Origin: Spironucleus salmonicida
Lineage: Eukaryota
Assembly: GCF_000497125.1 (NCBI RefSeq)
Contig: NC_090599.1
Span: 1,240,001-1,304,000 of the forward strand
Reading direction: 5' to 3'
Length of the DNA stretch: 64,000 bases
In this document: positions 12,701 to 53,492 of the stretch, in pieces
Layout: each line of letters starts with the position of its first letter
Numbering within the stretch: the stretch's first letter is position 1
The notes under the pieces: model-generated
What the model saw: only the letters and a program-made list of their open reading frames with translations
Database searches by the model: none
Told to the model about the DNA's origin: nothing
Made by a program: the position numbers and the translations under genes

Positions 12701-13050
12701 GACACATGGTAAACGACAAATATCAAGTGCGTGCTAGAGGGTTAGTAACGGAGGCACTGGGCTAGCCAGTTAAGGGCCGTTCTAGAGGCGGCGGGACGCG
12801 TTTCGGAGAAATGGAAAGGGACGCTCTAATTGGTCACGGAACAGCAGCTCTGTTAAGGGGCAGATTGTGCACGGAAAGCGACGGCAGAATCGTGGAGATC
12901 TGCGAGGATTGCGGCGGAATTTGGATCCAGGACGGAAAGTGCCAAGTGTGCTAAGGGGCCTTGAAGAAGTGCATCATGCCGCAGGTGTGTCTGGCGCTCG
13001 TTAGCGAGCTGAGCGGAATGGGGGTCAAAATGTCGTTTAAGGTCGAGTGA
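9703..13050 (+). CDS. RPA2: DNA-directed RNA polymerase I second-largest subunit
   Basis: [68 protein letters not shown] and C-terminal Zn ribbon; Pol I-specific signatures. Confidence 0.95.
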
Positions 13051-13085
13051 GAGGGTTTCTGGCGGTGCAGGATTAGATTTGGAGT
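12845..13085. repeat. RPA2 3' end, repeated in inverted orientation at ~34995-35236
   Basis: Direct comparison shows ~6 mismatches over the last 206 coding nt; track ORFs 12853-13215(-) and 34941-35228(+) translate almost identically. Confidence 0.92.
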
Positions 13086-13658
13086 GCTGGGAAGCGGTTT
13101 TTGGGAGATGAAAATGCAAAAAATATTGTGGGGAGATTAAATAGCACAGTCTGAAAATAAGAAAATGCGCATTTGCCAGAATGGAAAATAAGGAACTGAA
13201 GATTTTGATTGACAATTTGTGAGGTTGTTAGCAGACCAGATTCTTAAGAATTGGCTGGCTTTGCGAACCAAGAATAGAATTTTCAACTTATTGCTTTGAT
13301 CGTGATCGATTTTACAGTTTCTGATGAAAACGGAATTATGTTAGAAATAGTATTATATTAACAATATAAAAAAGAGTAAGTAAAATTATCTTAGTACCAA
13401 AAATGGTAATGAGGGCGCTATTATTAAAAGTTGAAGAAAGTATACGAAGTTTAATAAGAGTTAATTGGGTTAATTGCAAAATAGAGTTTCCATAAAGCTC
13501 GCTTTAGACCAGAGTATAGTTTGCATTACGTTTATTCTGGATGAGTAGCCTTTCAGAGTCTGTAATGAAAATGAAAATTAAATATTACGAGAAACTTAAT
13601 TTTATATTATATAGAATATTAAATATTGCATTATATGTTATTTCCCGCTTCTTCCAAG

Positions 13659-15917
13659 ATGTCATGCGACAATTCTAAGACCAACTGCTTGATCTGCTCG
13701 GATGCTACAGCCAGCAGTACATGCAATGCATGTATTCCTGGGTATGGCCTAGCTGATGATAAGTGCGATAGAGAATGTTCCTAGAATATTGGGTCTGACG
13801 GCACGTGCCAGGAAAAGGTAGACTGCTAAGGCGCACCTAACTGTGTGGACTGTTTTGGGGATACGTTTATATGCAGGATGTGCAATATCGAATCGGTTCT
13901 AGTAGGTTAGAGTTGCATTCTTAACAATTAATGTTAAACCGCAGACTCCAACTGCTTCACTTGCACCCGTTCTTCCCCAACTACGTGTGCAGCCTGCTCT
14001 GAAAATTTCGTGCTAGTGGAAGGGAGGTGTGTTCCTGATGCGTTCTGTAAGTCTGAGGGCGCCGGCAAGATCGACGGTTGCAAAGCATGCGCCAGCGCGA
14101 ACCCAGCAGTATGTGCTACTTGCTCTACAGAGTATACCCTGGTCGCGAATAAGTGTGTGAACTGCAAGACGGGCACTTCCCTCATTCCGAACTGTTCCAC
14201 GTGCGATCTGGCAGGCTCTAGGATATGCTAAGCCTGTTCGGCCGAGTATTAGTTAACCAATGGAGTGTGCACCAGCTGCACTACTGGGGTCTCGAAGATT
14301 GACAACTGCACCACCTGCTCCGCGGGAGCAGTATCCGAATGTGCTACCTGTGAGAATGAGTACTAGCTAATGCACGGCCGCTGCATAGCGAAGGACGCCT
14401 GTAAGGCCACCGACGCCAACTGTGAAACTTGTGATCCCATAGACCCGGCCAAGTGCAAGGTGTGTACCTCCGAGTATATCCTAAGTGCGGAAACGTGTGT
14501 GAACTGCAAGACGGGTAACTCGCTCATTCCAAACTGCACCGCCTGCGACCCTGCTGCCATCACTACCTGTACTGCATGCGGGGAGGATTACACTCTGAAC
14601 GATTAAAGCTGCGTTTCCAACACCGCTTGTAGGACAGTTCTCGAGAACTGTAGAACCTGCAACGCCGCTTATCCCGCGATATGCGATGCATGCAGCGACG
14701 ACTTCCAACTCGTAGAGACACAATGCGTCAGCAACGATGCCTGCAAGCAAGCGGGCAGCAAAGTTGTCCACTGCGCGACGTGCGGAGTCTCAAATCCGAG
14801 AACGTGCCTGAGCTGCGACGCCGACTACTCACTCGTCGAAGGCGCCTGCACAAACTGTCAGACTGGGGCGGCTGCCATACCCAACTGTTCACTCTGCGAC
14901 ACTTCAGATCCCGCTATCTGCAGAACCTGCGCCCCCTCCTTCACTCTCATGAAAAATTACTGCTTTTCGAAGCCTTTATGCGAATTCGGAAATCCGAACT
15001 GCACGGCCTGCGACGCTTCGGACCAATGGGTCTGTATCACTTGCAGGCCGAATTTCGACCTCATACGCGGTCAGTGCATCGACTCCCGGAACTGCAAAAG
15101 CGGCGAATTTGCTGTTGCGCGCTGCGCGAAATGCGTCATTTTCGACAGGTCGAAATGCGCGAAATGCGAAGCGGGATTTGCGCTTTTCGGGGGAAAATGC
15201 GTTGATGAGGACGCCTGTAAAGGCAGCTAAGGGGGCTGCAGCCGGTGCAGCGCTGCGAATCCGGCGGTCTGTGCAGCCTGCGAAAACGGGTTTTTACTCG
15301 TGAACGGGCGCTGCATTTCTGGCCAGGAATGCCGCACTGGCGAATTCGCTGTTGCCAACTGCGCTGCGTGCGATGTTACCGGCCCGCAGCCGACGAATTG
15401 TGGGGTCTGTGCTGATGGATTTACGCTAAAAAACAATGTCTGCATATCGCACAGTTTGTGCTTGTAGAACGTTCTGGATTGCAGAACGTGCGATAGCAAG
15501 GATTTCTCTATGTGCGGGGCGTGTTCTGATGGATTTACACTGAGTTCTGGGATGTGCGTGAATGTGCCAATTCACTGTATTGACTATAACGCAGATTCTA
15601 AGCAATGCGAGCAGTGTGGGGAATCTTATTTTAAGGCGTAAAAAGGATGCTAAAAATGTACTGAATATTGCACTCAGTGTACTTCGTTGGCACATTGCAC
15701 GTAGTGTTCTTAGGATATGTAATTGGTTGATGCGAAATGTAGTCAGAAGAATTTGTCTAGGGAGGTAGTTGTCGGTGTTAGTATTGGCTGTATAATGGCC
15801 ATCTTGCTTCTTGGTATAATTTTAATTGTTGTTTGGAAAAAGTTATAGAAGAAAATCCAACCAATCCCACCATTTTCTGCTAGTTTAGAATATGAGAATT
15901 TGGTAATAAATTAATGA
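13659..15917 (+). CDS. Cysteine-rich membrane protein (CXXC repeats, C-terminal TM; CRMP/VSP-like)
   Basis: Dozens of CXXC motifs, TM VVGVSIGCIMAILLLGIILIVVW followed by KKLQKK; alternative in-frame ATG at 13635. Confidence 0.9.
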
Positions 15918-16655: not shown

Positions 16656-18254
16656 TCATTCGAATAACCTTTTAGATGTTTTACTTTTCCGCTTCATGAA
16701 CGTAATACTACATATTAAATACACTATATTTATTATAATACCTGCAATAATAAATACCCAACCTTACCAAAAGGAATCATAACCTACTAAAACTTCCAGA
16801 CCGACTAATTCAAACATGGCCTCTTCGATAGAAACTACTCCAAAATATGTAGAAAATCCAAATTTACTTAATAAAACAGTAAATGAATCCTCTATGGGAT
16901 AACAGTAAGTATTGTCTTTAGATGGATATTCAAAATTATCAGTAAGACTTACCTGAATAATATCTTTATTAAATAGGTGGAATGTTTCACTTACATTTAC
17001 TTAAATTGATACAAAATTATGGGTCGAATAGATATTTTTATTTAGTTATACACACATTTACTTATGCGTTATAGTTATGTTAGCATTACCAGTAGGTGTA
17101 TGCTAAGGAGTAAACCGATATGATCCTGTAAATACAGTATTGTTAGAAAGTTTGTATATTATTGCTTAAGACATATTAGAAGGATAAGTCTAAACTAATG
17201 CCTATTATTATTAACACTCCTACATGGAATCATAGTCTGAAATTTCCCACGTAGAACAGCTTATATATCCTTATAACTCAAATGGATACGAAGTATAAAA
17301 TTATAGCTAGAAGTGTTTTCCACTTTCATCTGCTAATTCAGAAGCTGTAATCCAGTAAGATTTTTCGCTATAAATGCTGATATCACACATTGGATCCATT
17401 GGAATTTAATAAATGTATATAACATCATTAAAAAATGCTATTTTATCAGATGAAGTACAAGATTATGTGGTATCCCGTTAAGATATATCGATATTATAGA
17501 TTAAATTGAAATTTAAAGTAATTTCTTCATCTATTTCTACTCCATAGTCATTTGTATATTAATTAATGCTAGTGATACTTTTAGGAATGATTATTATGAG
17601 TTTAAGATTTATGAAATTTTCTCCTGATATTTTCAATGAAGTATCTGAGCATACCTTTTTATATTCCTCAGTTCCACTTAAGCAATCTGCTGTCTCAACA
17701 TTGAGTTCACCAAAATCAAATGAAGCTTAAGTGATATTTCTTTAAATTATAATATCTTTTTCCAAACTTAAAATATACATAACATCTGATGTAGTTGTAA
17801 CTATACACTTAGGATTAGTTTTCACAACGGCCGAGATTGAGGTAAACGACTCATACTAAATAGTTGGATCGTAAATGCACTGATTGTAGTTGTATATGAC
17901 CACTATGAGCTGCCCCACCGCCGCCGTCTGGTCCAGGTTGTTGTCCAGGAAGGTGATCATGTACGATGCGATGACGAAGGTGCTGGCGCTCTCGGCGGAG
18001 GACCCCGCTACCGGATGCAGCTCCACAACGTTGTCCTAGAACGCGTCGTAGACCACGAACTCCGACCTGAAGGTGTTGGTGCCAATCTGGATCTCGTAAA
18101 CCGCGGTCTTCCCGGTCTGCGCCCGACAGCTGATGGTCTCGTCGGCGTCCAGGATGGGGCTCGGCTGCGTCTAGAACTAGATAGAATCGGTTTATTTAAC
18201 TACTAATACGCTACTAGAACCTATTTGACAGCTGAATGCAAGAAGGATTATCAT
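16656..18254 (-). CDS. Type I membrane protein (532 aa), paralog A
   Basis: Short hydrophobic N-terminus MIILLAFSC, C-terminal TM plus basic tail; exactly colinear with 28666-30264. Confidence 0.8.
17798..18170. repeat. 373-bp block identical (inverted) to 28750-29122
   Basis: Base-by-base comparison found no mismatch; paired coordinates sum to 46920. Confidence 0.95.
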
Positions 18255-28665: not shown

Positions 28666-30264
28666 ATGATTGCTGTATTGACTTTTAGCTGTCAAATGCG
28701 TTCAGCTAGAGTTTAAATTAAAACATAAAGCGATTCTATAGAGTTCTACACGCAGCCGAGCCCCATCCTGGACGCCGACGAGACCATCAGCTGTCGGGCG
28801 CAGACCGGGAAGACCGCGGTTTACGAGATCCAGATTGGCACCAACACCTTCAGGTCGGAGTTCGTGGTCTACGACGCGTTCTAGGACAACGTTGTGGAGC
28901 TGCATCCGGTAGCGGGGTCCTCCGCCGAGAGCGCCAGCACCTTCGTCATCGCATCGTACATGATCACCTTCCTGGACAACAACCTGGACCAGACGGCGGC
29001 GGTGGGGCAGCTCATAGTGGTCATATACAACTACAATCAGTGCATTTACGATCCAACTATTTAGTATGAGTCGTTTACCTCAATCTCGGCCGTTGTGAAA
29101 ACTAATCCTAAGTGTATAGTTAAACCATCTGCATCAGTCATGTATATCCTTAATTTAGAAAACGATATAATAGTTTAGAAAAATATAACCTAGACAGATT
29201 TTGATTTTTCATCTTTCTCAGCCGAAAGCGCGAACTGTAAATCAGGTACAGACGCGTTTTAAAAACTTTGCTCCAATATTTCCCTGCAAATATCTGGTGA
29301 TAATTTTATTAGTCTACAACTCACGATCATAATACCAAAAACAATAAAAACCAAAAATAAGTATACCAACGATTATGGGGATGATGTTGATGAAGCTGTA
29401 ACTTTAAACTTTAATCTCATTTATATTATTCCTATTTCTAAACGTGATGTTACTGTAACATGTACATTATCCGACTAAGTGGGATTTTTAGAGGGTGTTG
29501 TGTATATCCACTAAATTCCTACCACACCAATATGTAATTTTGATACATATGATACGTAAACATTTTGGGTAACTGCTTCTGAACTTGCTGATGAAAGTGG
29601 AAAGAATTTCTAGCTATAATTCTATACTTAATAGGCATTTATGATCCATGGTTATTTTAGTTGTGAAACTTGGGAAATTTCAGGATATGAATCAATAGAA
29701 GAGTGTAATTTATAATTATTCTAGGTTAAAAGTTATCCTAGTAATATGTCTTAGGCTATTTCGTATAAACTATTTATTAAGAATGTTTTTTCAGGATCTT
29801 ATCGATTTAATTCAGATAATATTCCTGGTGGGGATTCAAATGCTACTATTACTTAAGGTTAAATGTGTGTTAAATTGAATAAAATTATACCAACTACACG
29901 AAATTTTATTTCAATATAGTTAAATATAAGCTAAACAGCAACATAATTTAATGAAAACAATGTATAAATAAGTCTAATAAACAGTTTCGAGTTTCCTTCC
30001 ATTGATAATACCTATTGTTTTACCATAGACAAATAATAAACATTAATTCTTAGTAAGTATGCTTTTTCAAGCTATTTTGGTGTCGTCTCAGCTGCAAGCA
30101 CATTATTGTAATTATAACAACTAGAAGTCTTAGCAGGGTACGATGTCTTCTATTAAGGGTGGATACTTATACTTGTTGCTATTGCTGTCTGTAGCATATT
30201 TATAATTATTAGGATTTTTATTTTGAAGAGATAAAATGTTAGTAATACTATTTATAAATATTGA
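28666..30264 (+). CDS. Type I membrane protein (532 aa), paralog B
   Basis: MIAVLTFSC N-terminus, TM WILILVAIAVCSIFIII; colinear with 16656-18254. Confidence 0.8.
28750..29122. repeat. 373-bp block identical (inverted) to 17798-18170
   Basis: Direct comparison. Confidence 0.95.
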
Positions 30265-33499: not shown

Positions 33500-34467
33500 T
33501 GACTCACCAAATACAGAAGCCTATAACGCCAAGTATAGCAACTAACAGGGAACAACCGACAGTAGCTTCTGCAATTGTTCATCAATCTAAGTTATTATTT
33601 ATACATAGTGATCAAATTTTGATGGATCCTTCCACATAAGTATCATAACCATCATCATAAGACCATATGTTGTACTAAAGCAGAAGTTTGGTATATATAC
33701 TTTACCTTATATTAGGAAATATTACAAGTTTTGCGTTAGGGTTTACCTTTGTTATAAAAGGCACAGATGGATAAGATGCCAATGGAGCTACCAGATATAA
33801 AACTAAGTTTTTGAACAAAATTTTATCATATTTCTGTATCAGAAATATGGCATAAGGTGGATTTTACGTCGAATATTTTACATTTACCGCTTGGTATACA
33901 TTTGGTGCGCACCAACATAAACCTGGTGGACCAGTTTTCCATAGTGATGTGCGTGGGATTACCATAGCGTTACACTACTGTCAAGCATTTTTCGTAACGC
34001 AGGACTACCACACTGGATAAAATGTATTCGCACAGCGCTTGTAATTAGCTGGTTCGGTAGAGTCGCATACAGTGCACTTTGAGACTTGGATCAGGCACGC
34101 ATCATTGATTGGCTATCTAACCTCGAGTAGGAAATGTCTTACTTGCATGCCGTGATGTTTCTTGGTTGCTGCTAGAACATATGGCCCAGCTTAGAATAAG
34201 TAAGATGCTAGTTTTGCATTTCACGCACTTGTTGGATGCCGCGATATACGCTTCCGAGCACAAATTCTCAGAGCAGGCTGTACATGTATCTGGGATAAAA
34301 CCTTCGCAGTTGAGCAATGGGAAGTGCGGCCCAATAATAATTCCTAAGAACGCAGTCATAGCATACAGACACCGATTCAGCGTTGCATATCCTGCATGTA
34401 AAATCATCCCCATAGTAGTAGACCCTGAGTATATCAGCTAGTTTGGATTTGAATATTTGCCTTGCAT
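33500..34467 (-). pseudogene. Degenerate cysteine-rich membrane protein, paralog of 13659-15917
   Basis: Upstream region and GDDFTCRICNAES, TCTACSEN, NKCVKCKT align to the intact CRMP but lie in different frames with deletions and TGA stops; TM remnant near 33510-33570. Confidence 0.75.
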
Positions 34468-35030
34468 TTTGGAAGAAGTGGGAAAGAGCTGACAATGCAA
34501 TACTTAGTGTTGCGGATAATACAAAATAAAGTTCGCTAGAATATGCAATTTATAATTCAATTAGATGGCCTGAAAGGTGGATCATCCCGAATAAAGCTAG
34601 TATACGCTATAATCGTCTAAACTTAGTGTGGTGGATACCTTAATTTGCTCACATTTAGGTTTACTCATACAATGCCCATCCACATAGTAATGTTTCTCCT
34701 ACTTGTAAATATTAGTTTCCCAGTTACCATTTGACTACTAAAAGACCATAACCTCCTATTTCGCTATATAACCAGTACAACTCATAATCTCCCAATTTCA
34801 GTTTGCATGATAAACTACAAAATCAGTTACCATCCAAGCAATAGCGTAAAGATAATCCATTCTCTGCAAAGCAAGCTAATTCTTTCCGAACTTACTTTTC
34901 TAGGAACCTCCTAATCTTTAGCATCCACCGTTCAGAGGCTTTGTTGCATGTCTGCACAGTGCTTCTATTATTTGCAGCTACCAGACCGTCTCAGCATGCC
35001 AAATCTGATCCTGCACTGCCCGAAACCATC

Positions 35031-35402
35031 TCACTCGACCTTAAACGACATTTTGACCCCCATTCCGCTCAGTTCGCTAACGAGCACCAGACACACCTTA
35101 GGCATGATGCACTTCTTCAAGGCCCCTTAGCACACTTGGCACTTTCCGCCCTGGATCCAAATTCCGCCGCAATCCTCACAGATCTCCACGATTCTGCCGT
35201 CGCTTTCCGTGCACAATCTGCCCCTTAACAGAGCTGTCTTGCCATAGTTGATTACAGCATGTATCTCTATTTTCCTAACAAATAATACACTACGTTTAAT
35301 CGCCTATTAGTAACTTTATATTTTCAACCAATCACAACTAGCCCTAATCATTATAATTTTAATATGAGGTTCATTAACTTATGTATTCAATAACTGATTC
35401 AT
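35031..35402 (-). pseudogene. RPA2 C-terminal (clamp/Zn-ribbon) fragment within a 123-aa ORF
   Basis: ...[49 protein letters not shown]...KMSFKVE*; the last 68 aa are nearly identical to RPA2 and the upstream part is heavily diverged. Confidence 0.75.
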
Positions 35403-41293: not shown

Positions 41294-41838
41294 TATTAAA
41301 TATGTTATATTGATTATTTATGTATAGGCCAAATATTGATAGAATAAAATAATTATATTCACTTATTAATTTTTAATTTTTACATAATTTTAGTATTGAA
41401 GGTATGCAGCATCCATCATAATATATTTGTAGTTATCGCAATAATGTTTATTGTTATTCCTTATTAGAATAATGTAAATATGTATTAAATAGTTTATACA
41501 ATTTTAATTTTAATATTATATCCGACTTACATAAAAAAATAGTGAAATAAACTGAAATTTATTTCTTTATCATACGTTAATTAATAGATATTTTTAGTGA
41601 ACTTTAGAAGAATAATTATATTTCCTAATATAATTATTGTATTCTTATTACATCTACAGATAGTTTAAATTGGTTTCGATAAATTCGATATTTAATATAA
41701 TTATGATCGCAATTAAATTATGAAAATATATTTTCTATATACTAGTTGTATTTACTTCTGTAATGTTATTAAAACAATTTTTAATTATTCGTACATATTA
41801 ATAGTATTTATTAATTTAATACAAATAAAAATAATAAA

Positions 41839-42336
41839 ATGCCTTCGAAAAATTTAGAGTTTAGTGCCAGAGAACATAGAGAGGCTTTTTCTACGGCATT
41901 CAATGTATAGTCTAAATTTATCGAAAATTAATTTAAGCTTAACTCAATTCCTATTTTATCATTTGATTAAAGTCAATTTCTTCCTCCGTAAATTAATATT
42001 AAGTCATAATATGTATCAAGCCCAATAAATAAAAGAAACATTTTAAATAATATCTAGAAGCTTTACTAAAGAGATGACTACGACCGGCTGTTCTACTCTG
42101 TGGGCGCGGCGCCGTTTTAGCTGAAGGGGAGGGTAGACAGCCTATACCGCAGGATTCAGGAGGAGCGCGCGCAGTCACCGCTCTAGGTCCACCACAGAGC
42201 CGCAGAGCCGCCAGCCAAGAAGCTGAAGCGCTTCGTGTCTGTGCCAGGATCGCTGCATGCGTCGCCGCGCGCTATGTCCTCTATGTCGGTGCGCTCCTAC
42301 GAGCCGCGGAGCTGCCAGCAAAGTCAGGTCCAGTGA
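41839..42336 (+). CDS. Hypothetical protein (165 aa), paralog A; C-terminal half inside the inverted repeat
   Basis: MPSKNLEFSAREHREAFSTAF...; ends CAGTGA; colinear paralog at 52995-53492. Confidence 0.75.
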
Positions 42337-42345
42337 GTTCTATCT

Positions 42346-43221
42346 TCACTCGTTCTTCCCAGGCTCCAGGTCGAACATTCCCACCAGCTTCAGGTACGCA
42401 TTAACCCCGATGAGGGCTTGAAGCAAACCGCTCGCATAGTTCAGCCAGCCGACCTTGACCACTCCCTGCTTCGAGGCCAGAGCGCGGGCAACCTGCTTGT
42501 TGCTGACCGAGAGCGGCGGCAGCATGCTAAGCTGCACCTTTTTGTTCGCGGCCTACATCTGGGGCTGCGCCATAAAGCGGGTCCCGCGCACCCCAACCGG
42601 GACCGCGACGCACACGCGCAAGTCCTTCCGCTCCATCAGTACCGCAGTGCCGAAGGTCTGAATCGCGGCCTTCGAAGCCGCGTAGAGCGAGAAGAAACGG
42701 GGCGGGAACGAGGCGCACAGCGAGGACGTAATGGTATAGTTTGTGAGGGAGGGCAGCTGCAGGAAGTAGTGCGACAGCAGGATGTGGGAGGTCAGGTTTT
42801 GGGCCAGGAACTCGGCGACCTGCGCACCCGAAAAGTCTGAAAAGCGGCGGTAATGGCCGCACCCGTGCAGAGAGTGGTAGTGCTGGATCTCGCTGGCCCG
42901 CAGGTCATGCTGCCGTAAAAAGGCCTCGAAGTGGCCCTAGAAGGTCGCGGTGTCGCTATAGTCGATCTGCATGGCGTAGACATCCGCGTTGGATTCAACC
43001 CATTCCGGTAGGACCGAGGTGCTCCTCGTCAGGAGAATGATCTTGAAGCTATTCTGTAGGATTTTGATTAGCTCGAGCCCGATACCGCCGGTACCGCCAG
43101 AAATAACCGCCAGGGGCTTGGCACCAGGGGCTGACCTGTAGCTGACAGTGTTGTAAGCCGACAGCGCGAAGGTGGTGAACGCGAGGAGCGCGAGAGCGAG
43201 GAGGGCCGCCTTGTACTGCAT
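42346..43221 (-). CDS. Membrane-anchored short-chain dehydrogenase/reductase, copy A
   Basis: N-terminal hydrophobic helix, ISGGTGGIG Rossmann motif, catalytic YAASK. Confidence 0.88.
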
Positions 43222-43661
43222 TTGCACTTAGCAGCGGATTATAACATATTATCGTATATGCTGCCTCGCCGAATGGACTGCTCGGCGGCCAGGTCTCTAT
43301 GCCAAGGCCGCGTGCACACTGCCTAGCCTCGATATGGCCTATGGGTGGCATCGGCGGTATTCGCCGCATTGCATGCTAGCAGGAAGTCAGCATATAGCCC
43401 AGCTGAAGTCTTTCGCCGCGGAAGTCAGTTTGATGGCAAATCGCGGGATGGGGAGCTAGAAGTTGGCTGCACGCGGCCGAACTAACGTTCCATCGCGGTT
43501 TCAGCGCGTCTACCTCAGGCTTCCAGCGCCCTGGCCACGTTGGCAGGTTGCCGGGTGAGCGCTGCTTAACGCTGGGGCGCCAGTAGCTAACGGTGCGGGG
43601 ATACTTGAAGCCCTGAGCCACCTAAGTGGTGAATTCCCGCATCGCACTAATTGGACATTGC

Positions 43662-44201
43662 TCAGGCGGATAGGCGAATAAATACGACACTCCCAGGCAG
43701 CAGGAATTTCAGCTCGTACAATGCTAACGCCTCTGGAATCCGCCAGGCGCACGGGCGATATGAGCGTTTTGCTTGTGCCAAAATATCCTCTGGGATGTAT
43801 GGTGGATGCATCGTATTTCCGAGCCAGCCAGCTGCATAAACTCGCTGCTCTTAAAGGGGCAGCAATGGCACATAGATTGGTATGTGAACTGAAACCGGCA
43901 ATGTGTATTTCGCATGGCCGTTTAGCTTGAACTTTCGAATGTAATCACTAATGCTTATTTTGCTACTGGTTCTGACCAGCATCGAAGAGATGGATTTATG
44001 AAGTTATGTGATTGGTCGTTTAATGACAAATACATATAGTCTTTCTATTTCGATTTTTATTTCCTCCAAATCAACAGGGAATATAAAAAAATCTCTTTTT
44101 ATATTGAATTCTGTCGAAAGATACTATACAATTTTGGATGCGAGGTCTCTGACATTTATTACTAAAATATTAGATAAGCTGAAACGAATAGTATATTTCA
44201 T
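43662..44201 (-). CDS. Possible hypothetical protein (179 aa), copy A
   Basis: Mirror of 51130-51669; open frame only. Confidence 0.3.
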
Positions 44202-45740
44202 ATAGTAAAAGACTAGAGGTTAAGTGTTTTAGAAGCATTAAAATACAATTAGTTATTATTTTCATTTTTAGCTTCAGTTTAATCATATAATTTAATAGTA
44301 TTTATTCATAATAAGTCTAAATAAAAGTATTGCACTGTTCAAATTATAGTGGTATTTCATTTAAACTAATTTTTAGACAGGTATATTATAATATAGTTAC
44401 GGAGGTGACAATGCAAAAAGTATAATTTAGACTGGAATCTATCATGTTATCACAAACATTCATGAAAAATTCCTTCATGTATATATTCTAAGCTATAATT
44501 GATCCTTGCTATTATAATCTGTTTAAGATATCTAATACTACATTAAATTATTCTTATAAGAATGAAAACAAACGTTAGTACTTTTCCGGGACAGATTTTC
44601 TTCTGATAAATTTTTAATTAAATAGTAAGTTTATAGCTGGAATTGAATTTATGCTTTAATATCAGAGCATCTGTAACCAGATATAGAAGATTAATAAAAT
44701 ATAAATTTAATTTAACATTAATAATCAATTTTTCCAAAGACAGAAATTAAAGAACAGAGCATTTTACTCTGAATAAGTAAATTATAATTATAAATTTTAA
44801 TGAATATCTGCCCTTCTATTGTGTAATGATATCTGCTATCATTCAATAAGAATTCATAGATAAGGCAATAGTACTCGTTTCATATTAAACAAATTAGTAA
44901 TACGATCTAGTATTCTTAATAAATGTATTGTTCTAGTTCATTAAAACCATGTTATACTGCATTAGTACCTACTACATACGATAAATACCATTTTAATTAA
45001 AGATCATGACAATACTATTATATTATAGATTAAAAGTACTTCGATATCTTTTAGTAAATATTCCACTACTATTTTCGTGGCAAATCTAACACTTGAGGAG
45101 CTTAGATAATAATATTATCATAATAATAAATATAGTATACCTTATCCGACGATTTTTACTTGGGAGTATAATCATCTGGCGCTGAATATTCTTCATATGA
45201 CTATGGAATAATAACTTGTGTTATATTTAAACAAGTTTCATCAATATGAAAAATGATTGAATACTATCTATGTCAAATCAGATACATAATTGGGTATTAA
45301 TAATCCTATTAGATAGATGTGGAATGATATTATGACTGTGAATCTCCTGTATCTAGTTAATTTTCATATAGTGTAATAGCATTATAACCTGCCTTATGAC
45401 TAATTTTGTTTTGCTTTACCATACAATTAATTCAAATATCTTCAGGTTTATTTTAACAATCTTTCCAGTTACAGTAATGTAGCAATACGTGCAAGATGTC
45501 ATTTTGTATAGGTAACGTCTTTTATTCTAGCTAATATTTGTTGCTGTATAGTTAATATATGACCAATTGTAGCATCTATATTGTACAAACCTGGTATTCC
45601 CCTGAAGAAGCTTGGATAGTATTATTTAATTTCATTCAAAAGCCGCATAATGTCCAAATCTAAAATAAATCAAAATTAACATTAGCTTATGATCTTTAAA
45701 AGCTAGATAATAATTAAATTACATCTTTGTATTATATATT

Positions 45741-46352
45741 TCACTGAAGCTCTGGCATTTCAATACATACAAATCCGTTTTATGCTTCTCCTTCACCATC
45801 ATAGGAAAAATGAAAAGCATCCTCTTGGATTTCTGAAACTCCAAACAATACTACACTTTAAAGGCATTTAACAATGTTTAAAACACGGTCTGATGTTCCA
45901 TAAAGCAGACCTGTTTACATTTTCATTGCAAATGCTTTGCAGATTGCAAGGGCAACCTCGTGCTTCTTGACTTGCAAATGGAATTTTTTCTAGTTATTTA
46001 ATGTTTCCATGGCAAGCTTTTAAAGAATCTTAGGAAAATCATATAACTTGATATACTTTTGCTTTGGCTAAGATGGAAAAAGATCGATATTTGGTTTAAG
46101 AAATACTTATTTAAGATTAGAAATGCGAACATATATTTATGACTTCTTTTCGTTTTGGTTAGGAATATTTTATTGTTTGAGAAGAATGGTAAAAAATGCT
46201 TCAAGATAGAAGATATCTGATAAAAGATGGTTAGAAGATATTTTCTCTTAATTAAACGAGAGTTTCTATATTGCGTATATTTATTCAGGTTTAAAGTTAG
46301 GTAAGAAAATATTTAGTTTTGAAGCGTGTTCCTATTTTTGAGCAGGTTCCAT
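45741..46352 (-). CDS. Hypothetical protein (203 aa), copy A
   Basis: MEPAQKQEHASK...; pyrimidine-rich upstream motif and CAGTGA stop. Confidence 0.65.
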
Positions 46353-46445
46353 TATTAAAGGTAAATGAAGAAGGGAAAATAATAACTTAACATAAAAATA
46401 ATACTATGGGATATATAGTGACTAATTAATTTTAGATTTTACAAA

Positions 46446-46796
46446 ATGAGGTAATTCATTTAGTTAGAATTACCTTTGGAATAAAAAATTTAACAAAGAT
46501 AACATGATACAACAAATATAAAGTAGGTCTAGACCTTGAGGATGCGAAGAAAATATCATCTTTCTACTGTTATGATCGAAGATGATTTTATTGAGCTAGA
46601 ATAGGAACTAGGGTCTAAGAGCAGGTAGAGGATGAGAAATAATGTAACAACTTTGTTAAAATTGAACTATTAATAAATAAAAACTATAAGTAGTATATTT
46701 TTAAACGAAAAACTATTCATGTTTTTGAAATATATTATATTTAATATTTCACTACGAACGATAAGATAATACTTAAACTAAGAGTAAAGTCATTGA
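46446..46796 (+). pseudogene. Truncated or chimeric copy of the 48283-48885 gene (first 65 codons shared)
   Basis: Identical up to the repeat boundary at 46640, then runs into unrelated AT-rich sequence. Confidence 0.5.
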
Positions 46797-46896
46797 ATAC
46801 ATGAATAATATCAAACTATAGATAATCCTTAACTTGAATTATATTATTGCCATCACAAAAAATGATATTCTATAAACTAAAAAACAAATTATGAAA

Positions 46897-47850
46897 TCAA
46901 TCATCATCTTCATCTAAATCTTCGTCGTCCAAATCCTCAAATATTCCCTACAGACTCATATATCGTTCACCTGTATCTGGAAGAATTGTTATGACATCGC
47001 AGTCATATTTTGAAGCATATTGAATTGCTGCATAAACGTTAGCACCACTGGACACTCCTGCTAATATACCTTCTTTTCTGGCCAATAACTTTGTTGTATT
47101 TAAAGCTTGATCATCATTAATTTACATTATTTCATCAACAATATCTGGATTATATACTTATGGTATAAATCCAGTTCCAATACCTTAGATTACATGAGGC
47201 TATGGTTTACATGCTTTTTATGTCTCTAAAATTATTGCTTTTTCTGGTTCTAAAGCAATCGATTTCAATTCTGGAAATGCTGCTTTTAAAGGAATAGACG
47301 CTCCAGAAATTGTACCTCCTGTACCACAACCGACTACAAAAAATTTTGGATTAATATTATACTCTTTACACTAATTAACTAGTTCTACACCTGTTGTGCA
47401 TTCATGAGCTTTAACATTAGCCTGATTATCAAATTATCCAAGACTAATATAATTTTTATTTTCATCCATTAGTTCTTTACATTTAGCTATAGCCCCTCTA
47501 GTTCCAAGTGTGCTCTCTGTTAAAATAAGGTTCGCTCCATAGCCTTATATCAATAAACGTCTCTCAATTGACATATTTGAAGGCATAACAATAGTTAAAG
47601 GTATTTGATAAGCTGCGCACACTAATGCTAGAGCAACACCAGTATTCCCTGATGTAGGTTCAATCAGTCTGGTTTTAGGTGTTATCCTATTCTATGATAT
47701 CAGATCTTTAAGCATAGCAATTGCCACTCTATCCTTAATTGAGCCCCCAGGTGAAATAGCTTCATATTTACAAAATACCCTGCCTCCTTTAGGCAGCTAT
47801 TATAGACGAATAAGTGGAGTTTTTCCAAGTTCTTCTGTTATTAGCGTCAT
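46897..47850 (-). CDS. cysK: Cysteine synthase (O-acetylserine sulfhydrylase, CysK-type)
   Basis: [17 protein letters not shown] (PLP Lys), [52 protein letters not shown]. Confidence 0.95.
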
Positions 47851-48024
47851 TTATATGGAAAAATATATAGAATTTTGCAATATAATATATAGATATAATT
47901 ACTCATGATTACTCACAATTTCTACTTCTATAATAATGTCTCAAATATGGTTATTTGTATAATATATGAAATTAATCATAAATATATTTTATTATATAAT
48001 ATTCCATAATTTCTATGCGGTAAA

Positions 48025-48276
48025 ATGGAGTATGTAACGTCAGAAACAAAGAATGGATATTTCACTGAGAATGAATTAGTGGAACTTAGAAAAACTAAAG
48101 TTTAATAAAAAATATCTGATATTGATTATTTAGCCTAACATAGTGAAATAGAAGCAATCATTAATGATCTCTATAAAAAATTATTAGATACAAAACCAGA
48201 CTCAAAAGAAGTTTATAAATTTGTTGCAAAGTATTTCATAGAATTAAATGAAGAACGCAGTAGAGCTATGGATTGA
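48025..48276 (+). CDS. Small RIIa/dimerisation-docking domain protein (RIIAD1-like, 83 aa)
   Basis: DYLAQHSEIEAIINDLYKKLLDTKPD...FVAKYF. Confidence 0.65.
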
Positions 48277-48282
48277 GTATAT

Positions 48283-48885
48283 TCAATAATCATTAATTAC
48301 ACTATTATTTAATTTATGAATTATTTATTATTTGGAGTCTGATATTTTGGAAAATATCAAATCTTAATTTAATTAATATTATTTCGATACTACAATTGGA
48401 AAATCATAAGAACATTCTAAATTATTTCTAGCTTTTGTTCTGAAACTTAGATATTTTTTCGACAAATAACCATTTGATAGTTCATTTATTATATTTGGTA
48501 TAATCATTTACAATTAATTGCTTTTTAATATAGGCTGTGATTCTTACTAACATTACAATAGCTAATTTCCTTCGTATTATGATTTATTATTATATTTTGT
48601 AGGTAGAACTTTTTCAAATTGTATAGATGCTTTAACATTAGTATCAATTACCTAAGACGTCATCCGTTATTTTATTGTAGTAAAATTAAGATTTCTCATC
48701 CTCTACCTGCTCTTAGACCCTAGTTCCTATTCTAGCTCAATAAAATCATCTTCGATCATAACAGTAGAAAGATGATATTTTCTTCGCATCCTCAAGGTCT
48801 AGACCTACTTTATATTTGTTGTATCATGTTATCTTTGTTAAATTTTTTATTCCAAAGGTAATTCTAACTAAATGAATTACCTCAT
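48283..48885 (-). CDS. Hypothetical protein (200 aa) spanning the inner repeat boundary
   Basis: Open frame MRQFIQLELPLEQK... continuing for 135 codons into the spacer. Confidence 0.55.
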
Positions 48886-48978
48886 TTTGTAAAATCTAAA
48901 ATTAATTAGTCACTATATATCCCATAGTATTATTTTTATGTTAAGTTATTATTTTCCCTTCTTCATTTACCTTTAATA

Positions 48979-49590
48979 ATGGAACCTGCTCAAAAATAGG
49001 AACACGCTTCAAAACTAAATATTTTCTTACCTAACTTTAAACCTGAATAAATATACGCAATATAGAAACTCTCGTTTAATTAAGAGAAAATATCTTCTAA
49101 CCATCTTTTATCAGATATCTTCTATCTTGAAGCATTTTTTACCATTCTTCTCAAACAATAAAATATTCCTAACCAAAACGAAAAGAAGTCATAAATATAT
49201 GTTCGCATTTCTAATCTTAAATAAGTATTTCTTAAACCAAATATCGATCTTTTTCCATCTTAGCCAAAGCAAAAGTATATCAAGTTATATGATTTTCCTA
49301 AGATTCTTTAAAAGCTTGCCATGGAAACATTAAATAACTAGAAAAAATTCCATTTGCAAGTCAAGAAGCACGAGGTTGCCCTTGCAATCTGCAAAGCATT
49401 TGCAATGAAAATGTAAACAGGTCTGCTTTATGGAACATCAGACCGTGTTTTAAACATTGTTAAATGCCTTTAAAGTGTAGTATTGTTTGGAGTTTCAGAA
49501 ATCCAAGAGGATGCTTTTCATTTTTCCTATGATGGTGAAGGAGAAGCATAAAACGGATTTGTATGTATTGAAATGCCAGAGCTTCAGTGA
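48979..49590 (+). CDS. Hypothetical protein (203 aa), copy B
   Basis: Mirror of 45741-46352; ends CAGTGA. Confidence 0.65.
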
Positions 49591-51129
49591 AATATATAAT
49601 ACAAAGATGTAATTTAATTATTATCTAGCTTTTAAAGATCATAAGCTAATGTTAATTTTGATTTATTTTAGATTTGGACATTATGCGGCTTTTGAATGAA
49701 ATTAAATAATACTATCCAAGCTTCTTCAGGGGAATACCAGGTTTGTACAATATAGATGCTACAATTGGTCATATATTAACTATACAGCAACAAATATTAG
49801 CTAGAATAAAAGACGTTACCTATACAAAATGACATCTTGCACGTATTGCTACATTACTGTAACTGGAAAGATTGTTAAAATAAACCTGAAGATATTTGAA
49901 TTAATTGTATGGTAAAGCAAAACAAAATTAGTCATAAGGCAGGTTATAATGCTATTACACTATATGAAAATTAACTAGATACAGGAGATTCACAGTCATA
50001 ATATCATTCCACATCTATCTAATAGGATTATTAATACCCAATTATGTATCTGATTTGACATAGATAGTATTCAATCATTTTTCATATTGATGAAACTTGT
50101 TTAAATATAACACAAGTTATTATTCCATAGTCATATGAAGAATATTCAGCGCCAGATGATTATACTCCCAAGTAAAAATCGTCGGATAAGGTATACTATA
50201 TTTATTATTATGATAATATTATTATCTAAGCTCCTCAAGTGTTAGATTTGCCACGAAAATAGTAGTGGAATATTTACTAAAAGATATCGAAGTACTTTTA
50301 ATCTATAATATAATAGTATTGTCATGATCTTTAATTAAAATGGTATTTATCGTATGTAGTAGGTACTAATGCAGTATAACATGGTTTTAATGAACTAGAA
50401 CAATACATTTATTAAGAATACTAGATCGTATTACTAATTTGTTTAATATGAAACGAGTACTATTGCCTTATCTATGAATTCTTATTGAATGATAGCAGAT
50501 ATCATTACACAATAGAAGGGCAGATATTCATTAAAATTTATAATTATAATTTACTTATTCAGAGTAAAATGCTCTGTTCTTTAATTTCTGTCTTTGGAAA
50601 AATTGATTATTAATGTTAAATTAAATTTATATTTTATTAATCTTCTATATCTGGTTACAGATGCTCTGATATTAAAGCATAAATTCAATTCCAGCTATAA
50701 ACTTACTATTTAATTAAAAATTTATCAGAAGAAAATCTGTCCCGGAAAAGTACTAACGTTTGTTTTCATTCTTATAAGAATAATTTAATGTAGTATTAGA
50801 TATCTTAAACAGATTATAATAGCAAGGATCAATTATAGCTTAGAATATATACATGAAGGAATTTTTCATGAATGTTTGTGATAACATGATAGATTCCAGT
50901 CTAAATTATACTTTTTGCATTGTCACCTCCGTAACTATATTATAATATACCTGTCTAAAAATTAGTTTAAATGAAATACCACTATAATTTGAACAGTGCA
51001 ATACTTTTATTTAGACTTATTATGAATAAATACTATTAAATTATATGATTAAACTGAAGCTAAAAATGAAAATAATAACTAATTGTATTTTAATGCTTCT
51101 AAAACACTTAACCTCTAGTCTTTTACTAT

Positions 51130-51669
51130 ATGAAATATACTATTCGTTTCAGCTTATCTAATATTTTAGTAATAAATGTCAGAGACCTCGCATCCAAAAT
51201 TGTATAGTATCTTTCGACAGAATTCAATATAAAAAGAGATTTTTTTATATTCCCTGTTGATTTGGAGGAAATAAAAATCGAAATAGAAAGACTATATGTA
51301 TTTGTCATTAAACGACCAATCACATAACTTCATAAATCCATCTCTTCGATGCTGGTCAGAACCAGTAGCAAAATAAGCATTAGTGATTACATTCGAAAGT
51401 TCAAGCTAAACGGCCATGCGAAATACACATTGCCGGTTTCAGTTCACATACCAATCTATGTGCCATTGCTGCCCCTTTAAGAGCAGCGAGTTTATGCAGC
51501 TGGCTGGCTCGGAAATACGATGCATCCACCATACATCCCAGAGGATATTTTGGCACAAGCAAAACGCTCATATCGCCCGTGCGCCTGGCGGATTCCAGAG
51601 GCGTTAGCATTGTACGAGCTGAAATTCCTGCTGCCTGGGAGTGTCGTATTTATTCGCCTATCCGCCTGA
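51130..51669 (+). CDS. Possible hypothetical protein (179 aa), copy B
   Basis: MKYTIRFSLSN...VFIRLSA*; open frame only, no recognisable motif. Confidence 0.3.
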
Positions 51670-52109
51670 GCAATGTCCAATTAGTGCGATGCGGGAATTC
51701 ACCACTTAGGTGGCTCAGGGCTTCAAGTATCCCCGCACCGTTAGCTACTGGCGCCCCAGCGTTAAGCAGCGCTCACCCGGCAACCTGCCAACGTGGCCAG
51801 GGCGCTGGAAGCCTGAGGTAGACGCGCTGAAACCGCGATGGAACGTTAGTTCGGCCGCGTGCAGCCAACTTCTAGCTCCCCATCCCGCGATTTGCCATCA
51901 AACTGACTTCCGCGGCGAAAGACTTCAGCTGGGCTATATGCTGACTTCCTGCTAGCATGCAATGCGGCGAATACCGCCGATGCCACCCATAGGCCATATC
52001 GAGGCTAGGCAGTGTGCACGCGGCCTTGGCATAGAGACCTGGCCGCCGAGCAGTCCATTCGGCGAGGCAGCATATACGATAATATGTTATAATCCGCTGC
52101 TAAGTGCAA

Positions 52110-52985
52110 ATGCAGTACAAGGCGGCCCTCCTCGCTCTCGCGCTCCTCGCGTTCACCACCTTCGCGCTGTCGGCTTACAACACTGTCAGCTACAGGTCAG
52201 CCCCTGGTGCCAAGCCCCTGGCGGTTATTTCTGGCGGTACCGGCGGTATCGGGCTCGAGCTAATCAAAATCCTACAGAATAGCTTCAAGATCATTCTCCT
52301 GACGAGGAGCACCTCGGTCCTACCGGAATGGGTTGAATCCAACGCGGATGTCTACGCCATGCAGATCGACTATAGCGACACCGCAGCCTTCTAGGGCCAC
52401 TTCGAGGCCTTTTTACGGCAGCATGACCTGCGGGCCAGCGAGATCCAGCACTACCACTCTCTGCACGGGTGCGGCCATTACCGCCGCTTTTCAGACTTTT
52501 CGGGTGCGCAGGTCGCCGAGTTCCTGGCCCAAAACCTGACCTCCCACATCCTGCTGTCGCACTACTTCCTGCAGCTGCCCTCCCTCACAAACTATACCAT
52601 TACGTCCTCGCTGTGCGCCTCGTTCCCGCCCCGTTTCTTCTCGCTCTACGCGGCTTCGAAGGCCGCGATTCAGACCTTCGGCACTGCGGTACTGATGGAG
52701 CGGAAGGACTTGCGCGTGTGCGTCGCGGTCCCGGTTGGGGTGCGCGGGACCCGCTTTATGGCGCAGCCCCAGATGTAGGCCGCGAACAAAAAGGTGCAGC
52801 TTAGCATGCTGCCGCCGCTCTCGGTCAGCAACAAGCAGGTTGCCCGCGCTCTGGCCTCGAAGCAGGGCGTGGTCAAGGTCGGCTGGCTGAACCATGCGAG
52901 CGGTTTGCTTCAAGCCCTCATCGGGGTTAATGCGTACCTGAAGCTGGTGGGAATGTTCGACCTGGAGCCTGGGAAGAACGAGTGA
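52110..52985 (+). CDS. Membrane-anchored short-chain dehydrogenase/reductase, copy B
   Basis: Same as copy A; differs at two residues (TAAF vs TATF, LNH vs LNY). Confidence 0.88.
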
Positions 52986-52994
52986 AGATAGAAC

Positions 52995-53492
52995 TCACTG
53001 GACCTGACTTTGCTGGCAGCTCCGCGGCTCGTAGGAGCGCACCGACATAGAGGACATAGCGCGCGGCGACGCATGCAGCGATCCTGGCACAGACACGAAG
53101 CGCTTCAGCTTCTTGGCTGGCGGCTCTGCGGCTCTGTGGTGGACCTAGAGCGGTGACTGCGCGCGCTCCTCCTGAATCCTGCGGTATAGGCTGTCTACCC
53201 TCCCCTTCAGCTAAAACGGCGCCGCGCCCACAGAGTAGAACAGCCTGTCGTAGTCATCTCTTTGTTTAGTTTTACAAATATTTATTAGTATATTTTTCTT
53301 ATTAACAGGAGCAGATATAAACTCTGATTTAAATAAAATGCTAGAAGGAAGAAATTTACTTTCTTCAAATGCTGATATTGGAATAGAATTTAGCTTAAAT
53401 TAATTAGTTATAAATTTAGATTGTATATTAAATGCTGTTGAGAATGCGTTTCGATTCTCTCTCGAACTAAATTCAATAGTTTGAGATGGCAT
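52995..53492 (-). CDS. Hypothetical protein (165 aa), paralog B
   Basis: MPSQTIEFSSRENRNAFSTAF...; N-half diverged from and C-half identical to 41839-42336. Confidence 0.75.

What the first reader, a model, noticed from the sequence alone, without database searches (positions are those of the whole stretch)
41839..53492. Abrupt identity-plus-GC step in mid-gene: candidate polar GC-biased conversion system
Seen: the two 165-aa paralogs are colinear without indels. Codons 1-76 are clearly diverged and ~22% GC (42001-42060); from 42068/53263 they are essentially identical and ~63% GC (42121-42180). GC then decays inward over ~1.9 kb. The 373-bp block shows the same sharp start and one-way decay, and the homogenised RPA2 tail is also GC-rich. 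Inference: the duplications are old and are repeatedly homogenised from fixed edges by recombination that favours G/C, rewriting codon usage and protein composition. I see no shared sequence motif at the edges.
Basis: partly seen in the sequence, partly recalled or inferred. Interest (0 to 1): 0.82.

Follow-up and report, generated by a model that had tools for sequence, protein, structure and literature searches.

The report
GC-rich conversion tracts, plateau not gradient
In the AT-rich genome of a fish-parasitic protist, two old mirror-image gene copies stay identical and become very rich in G and C exactly where they keep correcting each other, an unusually strong case of a known recombination bias and not a new directional system.

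Summary
The step is real. A 4,573-bp inverted repeat (42068-46640 / 53263-48691, 5 mismatched bases) begins at codon 77 of two old 165-aa paralogs. GC3 jumps from about 0.2 to 0.8 at that point, while a third paralog stays AT-rich. The organism is Spironucleus salmonicida.

The 'polar decay' is not supported. GC3 is flat for 1.15 kb, GC steps down near 43921, and the inner 2.7 kb is identical but only 27% GC. No edge motif was found.

The best reading is GC-biased gene conversion between copies, with an old GC-saturated core and a younger extension. In the 373-bp tract, 40 of 47 third-position A/T sites became G/C (23 of 117 outside). New variants in GC-rich repeats are AT-biased (68:24). In 864 kb of this contig, 33 of 40 strong GC steps lie within 50 bp of an identity edge (1.9% expected). 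Some single-copy GC islands remain unexplained.

The mechanism is known, and the link between duplicates and GC is already published for this species. The strength is unusual and bears on a question left open in 2007. This scan noted the same pattern repeatedly on other DNA of this genome.

The parts
41839..42336 (+). 165-aa paralog A (code 6), unknown function; codons 1-76 diverged and AT-rich, codons 77-165 homogenised and GC-rich
   Evidence: no Pfam family, no outside homolog among 23 candidates, no atlas hit
52995..53492 (-). 165-aa paralog B, mirror copy; 68% DNA identity to A in codons 1-76
42068..46640 (+). Arm A of the inverted repeat, 4,573 bp; 5 mismatched bases to arm B, all within the outer 878 bp
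   Evidence: one collapsed short-read contig 42086-46640 in run X1
48691..53263 (-). Arm B of the inverted repeat
   Evidence: no third DNA copy found in G000
42068..43921 (.). GC-rich core of arm A (58% GC, GC3 0.80; non-coding 43222-43661 is 54-61% GC); mirror at 51410-53263
43922..46640 (.). AT-rich inner tier of arm A (27% GC, no mismatch to B); mirror at 48691-51409; inferred younger extension
42346..43221 (-). Short-chain dehydrogenase/reductase, copy A, 291 aa (copy B at 52110-52985 +); GC3 0.63-0.90 along the gene
   Evidence: PF00106; UniRef record named S. salmonicida SDR
43662..44201 (-). 179-aa ORF (mirror 51130-51669 +) that straddles the second GC step
   Evidence: exact sequence in public collections; GC3 0.20-0.40 then 0.40-0.60
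45741..46352 (-). 203-aa ORF (mirror 48979-49590 +), duplicated and identical but GC3 0.17-0.40
48283..48885 (-). 200-aa ORF that crosses the inner junction of arm B; arm A holds only its first 65 codons (46446-46640)
   Evidence: exact sequence in public collections
46641..48690 (.). Single-copy spacer, 2,050 bp, with a cysteine-synthase-like PLP enzyme gene at 46897-47850 (-), GC3 0.08-0.28
   Evidence: PF00291 ('cysteine synthase' is my reading of the sequence)
17798..18170 (-). 373-bp identical tract (codons 29-153) in a 532-aa gene at 16656-18254 (-)
28750..29122 (+). Partner of the 373-bp tract, in the 532-aa paralog at 28666-30264 (+)
12845..13092 (+). 3' tail of the RNA polymerase I second-largest subunit gene (9703-13050), GC3 0.76
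   Evidence: PF06883 and Rpb2 domains
34989..35236 (-). Headless 248-bp inverted copy of the RPA2 tail, 95% identical; 9 of 13 differences are G/C in RPA2 and A/T in the fragment

Best explanation
Local inverted duplicates exchange sequence by non-allelic gene conversion, and mismatches are fixed preferentially as G or C. Stretches that stay near-identical keep converting, and stretches that have diverged escape. This alone yields sharp, long-lived edges, also in mid-gene. GC content then records how long a stretch has been under conversion. 42068-43921 is an old core near saturation. 43922-46640 is a younger tier, copied from the B side to the A side and ending inside the 200-aa ORF. SHOWN: the identity pattern, old paralogy outside the edge, derived and in-place GC gain, A/T-to-G/C excess, AT-biased new variants, and plateau-plus-step profiles. 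INFERRED: conversion as the physical process, heteroduplex repair bias as its cause, and the age order and direction of the two tiers.
For: (1) The third 165-aa paralog (L041) has GC3 0.07-0.27 in every full bin of its homologous part, where A/B have 0.67-0.87 past the edge. GARP residues are 0.33 and FYMINK 0.16 in the A/B C-half, against 0.19 and 0.42 in L041. (2) 373-bp tract: GC3 0.78 in both copies, against 0.21, 0.27, 0.14 in L025, L026, L028 and 0.22-0.23 outside the tract. With L025+L026 as outgroups, third-position W>S is 40 of 47 inside and 23 of 117 outside (p 5e-15); first/second-position W>S:S>W is 12:0 and 33:41 (p 2e-4). Two other outgroup pairs agree. (3) Single-copy-out variants in families of 3-11 copies at local GC >=0.6 are 68 S>W to 24 W>S, or 27:9 after removing clustered ones (p 0.004). 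A local GC-ward mutation bias at equilibrium predicts 1:1. (4) In 864 kb of C4, 33 of 40 GC steps >=0.40 and 57 of 98 steps >=0.30 lie within 50 bp of an identity edge (1.9% of random sites do). 140 of 150 unique-to-duplicate edges are GC-richer inside. 369 of 377 200-bp windows at >=65% GC are duplicated, against 201 of 1,586 below 30%. (5) Of 9 mid-gene edges between old paralogs with single-copy flanks, GC3 inside exceeds both flanks by >=0.18 in 7. (6) Non-coding DNA in the core is 54-61% GC against 17-20% in nearby single-copy intergenic DNA. (7) Two-tier reading: step beats exponential decay in 10 of 10 arms fitted. AT-rich duplicated columns carry fewer mismatches (1.4 per kb) than GC-rich ones (2.2-3.1). 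The inner tier here has no mismatch, and its junction cuts a publicly listed ORF in arm A only.
Against: (1) GC-rich DNA without a partner exists: 60 of 1,460 single-copy 60-codon windows have GC3 >=0.75 (24 ORFs). Whole-genome searches found no partner for C4:653834-660000, C4:1004000-1010000 or the GC3 0.86 half of the 532-aa gene at 6880-8478. These need lost partners or a second process. (2) 36 of 57 unique-flanked edges show no homology beyond the edge, and in several one flank stays GC-rich, so many steps could be plain juxtaposition. (3) 2 of the 9 mid-gene edges show no step in one copy (0.69 vs 0.67; 0.49 vs 0.49). (4) One arm (C4:913308) fits a broad gradient better than a step. (5) Third-position S>W inside the 373-bp tract is not lowered (3 of 6, against 13 of 26 outside). 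(6) The singleton excess would also arise if GC were now decaying. (7) No ortholog DNA from a related species and no population data were available. The sample is 6% of the genome, from one contig.
Confidence: 0.72

Rival explanations
1. GC first, duplication second. Certain loci become GC-rich by allelic recombination hotspots or regional mutation bias, and the same loci are then duplicated or copied once into a paralog.
For: Partnerless GC islands. One flank stays GC-rich at several edges, for example 649363/653833 (0.21 vs 0.63). GC in RPA2 rises before the identity edge.
Against: Both copies are AT-rich and homologous right outside the edge here and at both ends of the 373-bp tract. A one-off junction landing within about 15 bp of a pre-existing step in both cases is unlikely. 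New variants are AT-biased, which argues against mutation bias.
Confidence: 0.13
2. One reading: conversion initiates at a fixed edge and tract coverage falls off one way, possibly tied to transcription, so GC follows a polar gradient.
For: Outer ends are GC-richer in 9 of 10 inverted pairs with spacers under 2.1 kb (threshold chosen after seeing the data). One arm has a broad gradient. Contigs of one run guessed to be RNA span 42041-43152 and 43278-43990, close to the core limits (X6; a weak hint from one study, and X5 runs on to 44588).
Against: Flat GC3 in the core and a step fit better by 51 log-likelihood units. Only 12 of 25 wider-spaced pairs show the same direction. The sharp edge is the outer end here but the inner end in the 373-bp pair. 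No motif. AT-rich parts are not more mismatched.
Confidence: 0.09
3. Selection on codon usage or protein composition, or a laterally acquired GC-rich insert.
For: The best outside matches of the dehydrogenase are distant (25-32% identity), so its origin is open.
Against: The GC-rich halves are colinear with AT-rich native paralogs. Steps fall in mid-gene. Non-coding DNA follows. Highly expressed genes of this species centre on GC3 about 0.4 (PMC1805757, passages).
Confidence: 0.03
4. Assembly artefact: a falsely duplicated or polished-identical repeat.
For: Polishing can erase differences between near-identical copies (own knowledge). Contigs of X1, X5 and X6 list no arm-B letters at 42438 and 42463, though contigs drop variants.
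Against: Short-read contigs branch at 42086 and 46640. The opposite-strand inner junction appears in X1, X4 and X5, and X5 comes from a second study. Polishing cannot create the GC step.
Confidence: 0.02

Closest known systems
GC-biased arm-to-arm gene conversion in primate X/Y palindromes (PMC8981503, passages; PMC6790999, passages)
   Same: Inverted arms over 99% identical around a spacer; arms GC-richer than flanks; GC-biased replacements; arm limits move, and palindromes expand or lose an arm.
   Different: There the arms are about 46% vs 41% GC, with equilibrium near 61%, and tens of kb long (P8 arms about 38 kb). Here arms are 0.4-8 kb, 17 of 21 two-copy pairs are inverted, GC3 goes from 0.2 to 0.8-0.92, and edges cut genes.
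Regional conversion in protocadherin clusters (fugu, PMC1852091, passages)
   Same: One part of each paralog is diverged and another nearly identical, with higher GC3 in the converted part of the same gene.
   Different: The GC3 shift there is about 40 to 55-69%, in tandem arrays. Here it is about 20 to 80-92%, in inverted pairs.
Non-allelic gene conversion between human duplicates (bioRxiv 10.1101/135152, passages; review PMC3924837, passages)
   Same: Homology-dependent conversion with escape after divergence; W>S excess.
   Different: Bias estimated at 67% per mismatch, with converted regions 48.9% vs 39.6% GC. The shift here is 2.8-3.7 logit units.
Identical inverted vsp pairs of Giardia intestinalis (PMC2996952, passages) and conserved inverted pairs in Caenorhabditis (PMC1803023, abstract)
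   Same: Same geometry in a related diplomonad: identical genes head-to-head or tail-to-tail, 2-4 kb apart, with abrupt divergence points.
   Different: The Giardia pairs were read as recent duplications, and the passages I saw give no GC step. The genes here are not VSPs and the paralogy is old.
Published GC heterogeneity of S. salmonicida (PMC1805757 section 15; PMC2874811 section 7; PMC9509377 main text)
   Same: Sharp GC shifts and high-GC3 genes are reported. Duplicated regions average 44.7% vs 30.7% GC. Gene conversion is suggested for surface-protein families.
   Different: The 2007 paper says neither mutation nor selection easily explains the pattern. I saw no base-level edge test, polarised substitutions or GC-biased conversion in the parts I read.

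Membership tests
Interlocus GC-biased gene conversion in inverted repeats | Near-identical inverted arms around a unique spacer | tested here: met
   4,573 bp, 5 mismatched bases, 2,050-bp spacer; junctions seen in short-read contigs
Interlocus GC-biased gene conversion in inverted repeats | Duplication older than the arm identity implies | tested here: met
   Colinear flanks at 68% DNA identity here; 53% aa identity outside vs 99% inside the 373-bp tract
Interlocus GC-biased gene conversion in inverted repeats | Homogenised DNA is GC-richer than flanks and non-converted homologs | tested here: met
   Met for the core, the 373-bp tract and 140 of 150 edges; not met for the inner 2.7 kb of this repeat
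Interlocus GC-biased gene conversion in inverted repeats | Polarised substitutions biased A/T to G/C | tested here: met
   373-bp tract: 40 of 47 vs 23 of 117; 12:0 vs 33:41. The focal repeat has only one outgroup, so strict polarisation was not done there.
Interlocus GC-biased gene conversion in inverted repeats | Fixation bias, not mutation bias (new variants AT-biased) | tested here: met
   68:24, or 27:9 declustered; measured in other multi-copy families of C4, and decay of GC would look the same
Interlocus GC-biased gene conversion in inverted repeats | Both arms share lineage-specific changes against another species; biased resolution seen directly | not testable with these tools
   G000 has no relatives here; runs are kept as contigs only
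Polar conversion gradient from a fixed initiation site (yeast ARG4/HIS4 type; recalled, no call) | Monotonic decay from one edge | tested here: not met
   Flat GC3, step fit better in 10 of 10 arms; one broad gradient
Polar conversion gradient from a fixed initiation site (yeast ARG4/HIS4 type; recalled, no call) | Consistent direction across loci | tested here: not met
   Outer > inner in 21 of 35 pairs, p 0.13
Polar conversion gradient from a fixed initiation site (yeast ARG4/HIS4 type; recalled, no call) | Shared cis element at the edge | tested here: not met
   19 edges, k 5-8, shuffle fraction >=0.23; long or structural signals not tested
Polar conversion gradient from a fixed initiation site (yeast ARG4/HIS4 type; recalled, no call) | Mapped double-strand breaks at the edge | not testable with these tools
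   Needs break mapping
Laterally transferred GC-rich insert | GC-rich part lacks native homologs and has a close foreign donor | tested here: not met
   Native AT-rich paralogs are colinear; no close outside match for the dehydrogenase among 8,000 scored candidates

The most novel reading that the evidence does not exclude
This diplomonad resolves mismatches between duplicates towards G/C almost every time. A shift of 2.8-3.7 logit units needs about 94-98% bias per mismatch in a purely clonal two-copy system. A mammal-like 67-70% would have to be compounded some 3-5 times, for example across the several copies of a two-nucleus cell (my arithmetic). Either way, mitotic conversion between hundreds of small inverted repeats would be the main force behind the genome's GC islands. 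GC would then date how long each base has been duplicated, and even dead fragments would rewrite essential genes such as RPA2.
Probability: 0.25. Interest if true: 0.72.

Novelty: new variant of a known kind. Interest (0 to 1): 0.45.

Why it matters
The GC islands and extreme-GC3 genes of S. salmonicida were left unexplained in 2007 and 2010. The 2022 assembly paper only notes that duplicated regions are GC-richer. These loci give a base-level, testable account: the GC gain is derived, confined to homogenised tracts and looks like a fixation bias. It reaches amino-acid level in a protist without known meiosis (own knowledge). It also warns that GC, codon usage and identity-based ages of duplicates in this genome should not be read as signs of lateral transfer, selection or recent origin.

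Tried and rejected
Genetic codes 1 and 4 gave few long ORFs and code 6 fits. A gapped self-search timed out and was replaced by an ungapped one, so repeats with many indels are split or missed.

Exponential decay from the edge: rejected (I chose 10 of the 35 arms, all with outer > inner GC; the step model optimises its breakpoint, which favours it somewhat). A fixed loop-size limit as the cause of AT-rich inner arms: unlikely, because the distance between homologous sites at the step ranges from 3.1 to 11.9 kb, and inner ends of 0.68-0.71 GC occur at 3.4-3.9 kb spacers. Edge motif: none.

ORF truncation at junctions as a general age test: not discriminating. My crude gene finder missed GC-rich genes, and asymmetry occurs at all kinds of edge. 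Of 47 mid-gene edges, GC3 was higher inside in 30; 38 were dropped because a flank was itself duplicated or at least 75% alike, leaving 9. In one search the L029 reading frame was wrong, and it was corrected.

Function of the 165-aa protein: no Pfam, homolog or atlas hit. Expression: no RNA holder is on record. The two runs guessed to be RNA give no cover at 41449-41946, which is no evidence either way. I looked up only the 74-aa form of the truncated arm-A ORF, not the 116-aa form. Other chromosomes were not sampled beyond short loci, so 'genome-wide' here rests on one contig plus the published averages.

Literature: 0 papers hold 'Spironucleus salmonicida' with 'GC-biased gene conversion'. 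Two unrelated papers hold 'diplomonad' with 'biased gene conversion' (listing only). The library lacks most subscription journals, and no supplements were opened; those of the genome papers may bear on novelty.
Full report
Setting. The window is G000:C4:1240001-1304000. Long ORFs appear under genetic code 6. The dehydrogenase in the repeat matches a UniRef record named Spironucleus salmonicida at 100% by BLASTP, with one residue different from each arm. The organism is therefore this AT-rich diplomonad parasite of salmon.

Anatomy. The finding is an inverted repeat with arms at 42068-46640 and 53263-48691. The arms differ at 5 bases, all in the outer 878 bp, and enclose a 2,050-bp spacer with a PLP-enzyme gene. 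Each arm starts at codon 77 of a 165-aa gene. The first 76 codons are colinear, 68% identical and 25-27% GC. The arm then carries a short-chain dehydrogenase and ORFs of 179 and 203 aa, and ends inside a 200-aa ORF that is whole only on the B side. Short-read contigs branch at 42086 and 46640, and the inner opposite-strand junction is present in three of four runs laid, one from a second study. The repeat is not an assembly artefact.

The step is real, the decay is not. The GC change-point lies at 42081 (42066-42084) and 53251 (53246-53265), within about 15 bp of the identity edge. Beyond it GC3 is flat: 0.79, 0.82, 0.84, 0.76 over 378 codons, rho -0.01. Total GC holds near 0.58 to about 43921 and then drops to 0.27 for 2,720 bp that are still identical between arms. 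A step fits better than exponential decay by 51 log-likelihood units. It did so in 10 of 10 arms that I fitted, chosen from 35 for having a GC-richer outer end; one of them is better described by a broad gradient. Outer ends exceed inner ends in 21 of 35 inverted pairs (p 0.13; the pairs are not all independent): 9 of 10 with spacers under 2.1 kb and 12 of 25 with wider ones. The 373-bp block has its sharp edge at the inner end, a plateau of GC3 0.92 and a lower tier of 0.46. In RPA2, GC rises from about codon 850, well before the identity edge, while the partner is a headless fragment at 95% identity. No 5- to 8-mer is shared among 19 sharp edges beyond chance.

The GC is derived and in place. 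A third 165-aa paralog 60 kb away (L041) aligns across the whole protein and has GC3 0.07-0.27 where A and B have 0.67-0.87. GARP residues are 0.33 against 0.19, and FYMINK 0.16 against 0.42. For the 373-bp tract, nine full-length family members were aligned. GC3 in the tract is 0.78 in both converted copies, 0.14-0.38 in six relatives and 0.64 in one (L029, which is GC-rich over much of its length). With L025 and L026 as outgroups, 40 of 47 third-position A/T sites became G/C inside, against 23 of 117 outside. At first and second positions the ratio W>S:S>W is 12:0 inside and 33:41 outside (p 5e-15 and 2e-4). Third-position S>W is not lower inside (3 of 6 against 13 of 26). Non-coding DNA in the core is 54-61% GC against 17-20% nearby. 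This excludes a foreign insert and makes codon selection unlikely.

Wider test. I examined 864 kb of C4 (640001-1504000; 6% of the genome). Duplicated DNA is 52% GC and the rest 31%; 369 of 377 windows at 65% GC or more are duplicated, against 201 of 1,586 below 30%. Of GC steps of at least 0.40 between adjacent 300-bp windows, 33 of 40 lie within 50 bp of an identity edge; at 0.30 it is 57 of 98; 1.9% of random sites do. Of the 31 steps of at least 0.30 that lie more than 200 bp from an edge, 21 are inside duplicates and 10 in single-copy DNA. At 140 of 150 unique-to-duplicate edges GC is higher inside, and the mean profile over 106 edges goes from 0.31 to 0.53 in one 50-bp bin. 17 of 21 two-copy pairs are inverted. 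Variants seen in only one copy of 3-11 are AT-biased even at local GC of 0.6 or more: 68 S>W to 24 W>S, or 27 to 9 after removing clusters. That points to a fixation bias and not a local mutation bias, unless GC is now decaying.

What does not fit. 36 of 57 unique-flanked edges show no homology beyond the edge, and some keep a GC-rich flank on one side. Those steps may be juxtapositions, so only 9 mid-gene edges between old paralogs are diagnostic: 7 show a clear step and 2 show none in one copy. 60 of 1,460 single-copy 60-codon windows have GC3 of 0.75 or more. Three stretches searched against the whole genome held GC-rich DNA with no partner, including a 532-aa gene in this window whose GC3 ramps from 0.4 to 0.86. 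Lost partners would explain them, as the RPA2 fragment suggests, but this is not shown.

Mechanism. Conversion needs high similarity and stops once copies diverge (PMC3924837 and bioRxiv 10.1101/135152, passages). Identical patches therefore persist beside diverged ones without any edge signal. With a repair bias to G/C, the time spent under conversion sets the GC level. I read the arm as two tiers: an old core, and a younger inward extension copied from B to A. The extension has no mismatch, cuts a listed ORF only in A, and has not yet gained GC. AT-rich duplicated columns are not more mismatched than GC-rich ones (1.4 against 2.2-3.1 per kb), which a steep fall in conversion rate would predict. 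Palindrome expansion and arm loss are documented in humans (PMC6790999, passages). The age order is inference.

Comparison. It works like GC-biased conversion in primate palindrome arms (46% vs 41% GC; PMC8981503, passages) and like converted protocadherin regions (GC3 about 40 to 55-69%; PMC1852091, passages). It passes every membership test I could run for that class and fails three for a polar gradient. The geometry matches Giardia's identical inverted vsp pairs (PMC2996952, passages). For this species, sharp GC shifts were reported and called hard to explain (PMC1805757, passages and section 15). They were found weaker in S. barkhanus (PMC2874811, section 7). Duplicated regions were later given as 44.7% vs 30.7% GC, with gene conversion suggested for surface proteins (PMC9509377, parts 1-2 of 3). 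Passages of PMC3916229 and PMC8516963 added nothing on this. A search for the species with 'GC-biased gene conversion' found 0 papers, in a library that lacks most subscription journals.

Verdict. A real and unusually strong case of a known process: a shift of 2.8-3.7 logit units, reaching amino-acid level. It makes an old question about this genome testable. The polar, fixed-edge system is not supported. Earlier notes of this scan report the same pattern on other contigs; they are unchecked and not counted as evidence. Novelty: new variant of a known kind. Interest 0.45.

Noticed in passing
window 6880-8478 (+): A 532-aa gene with no partner found in G000 has GC3 ramping from 0.4 to 0.86, with a drop just after the stop (change-point about 8528). 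It looks like a tract whose partner is gone.
   Followed up: partly
window 18960-20700 (-), RPB2 3' half: GC3 rises from about 0.25 to 0.5-0.7 from codon 661 onward with no partner found.
   Followed up: partly
protein P0001 vs window 42346-43221 and 52110-52985: A database record of the dehydrogenase carries the arm-A residue at 93 and the arm-B residue at 262: a real recombinant or a collapsed-repeat consensus.
   Followed up: partly
window 42041-43990: Contigs of run X6 (guessed RNA) cover 42041-43152 and 43278-43990, close to the limits of the GC-rich core; X5 covers 42104-43213 and 43278-44588. One study only.
   Followed up: no
L025 (G000:C4:1307277-1308842): This paralog is 72% identical in protein to the converted pair within the 373-bp tract but 50-55% outside, yet AT-rich. 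It may have shared the tract once, or the region is simply more constrained.
   Followed up: no
G000:C4:647766-649197 / 671141-669710: Inverted 519-aa paralogs with two homogenised tracts (99.6% and 97.6%) split by 228 bp at about 63% identity; one copy is GC-rich beyond the tract edges.
   Followed up: partly
G000:C4:653834-658941: About 5 kb of single-copy GC-rich DNA continues from one arm of a 1.4-kb inverted repeat whose other arm has an AT-rich flank.
   Followed up: partly
G000:C4:802362-804480: Tandem array with a 27-bp period at about 60% GC; further GC-rich arrays near 841000-853000 and 1118000-1130000.
   Followed up: no
window 13250-14014 vs 34257-34900: Old inverted homology (about 60-70%) continues from the RPA2 tail into two cysteine-rich sequences, so the RPA2 fragment is part of a larger old duplication.
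   Followed up: no
window 48025-48276 (+): A small spacer ORF of about 83 aa resembles an RIIa/Dpy-30-type dimerisation helix (recalled, untested); the overlapping 123-aa ORF had no Pfam hit.
   Followed up: no
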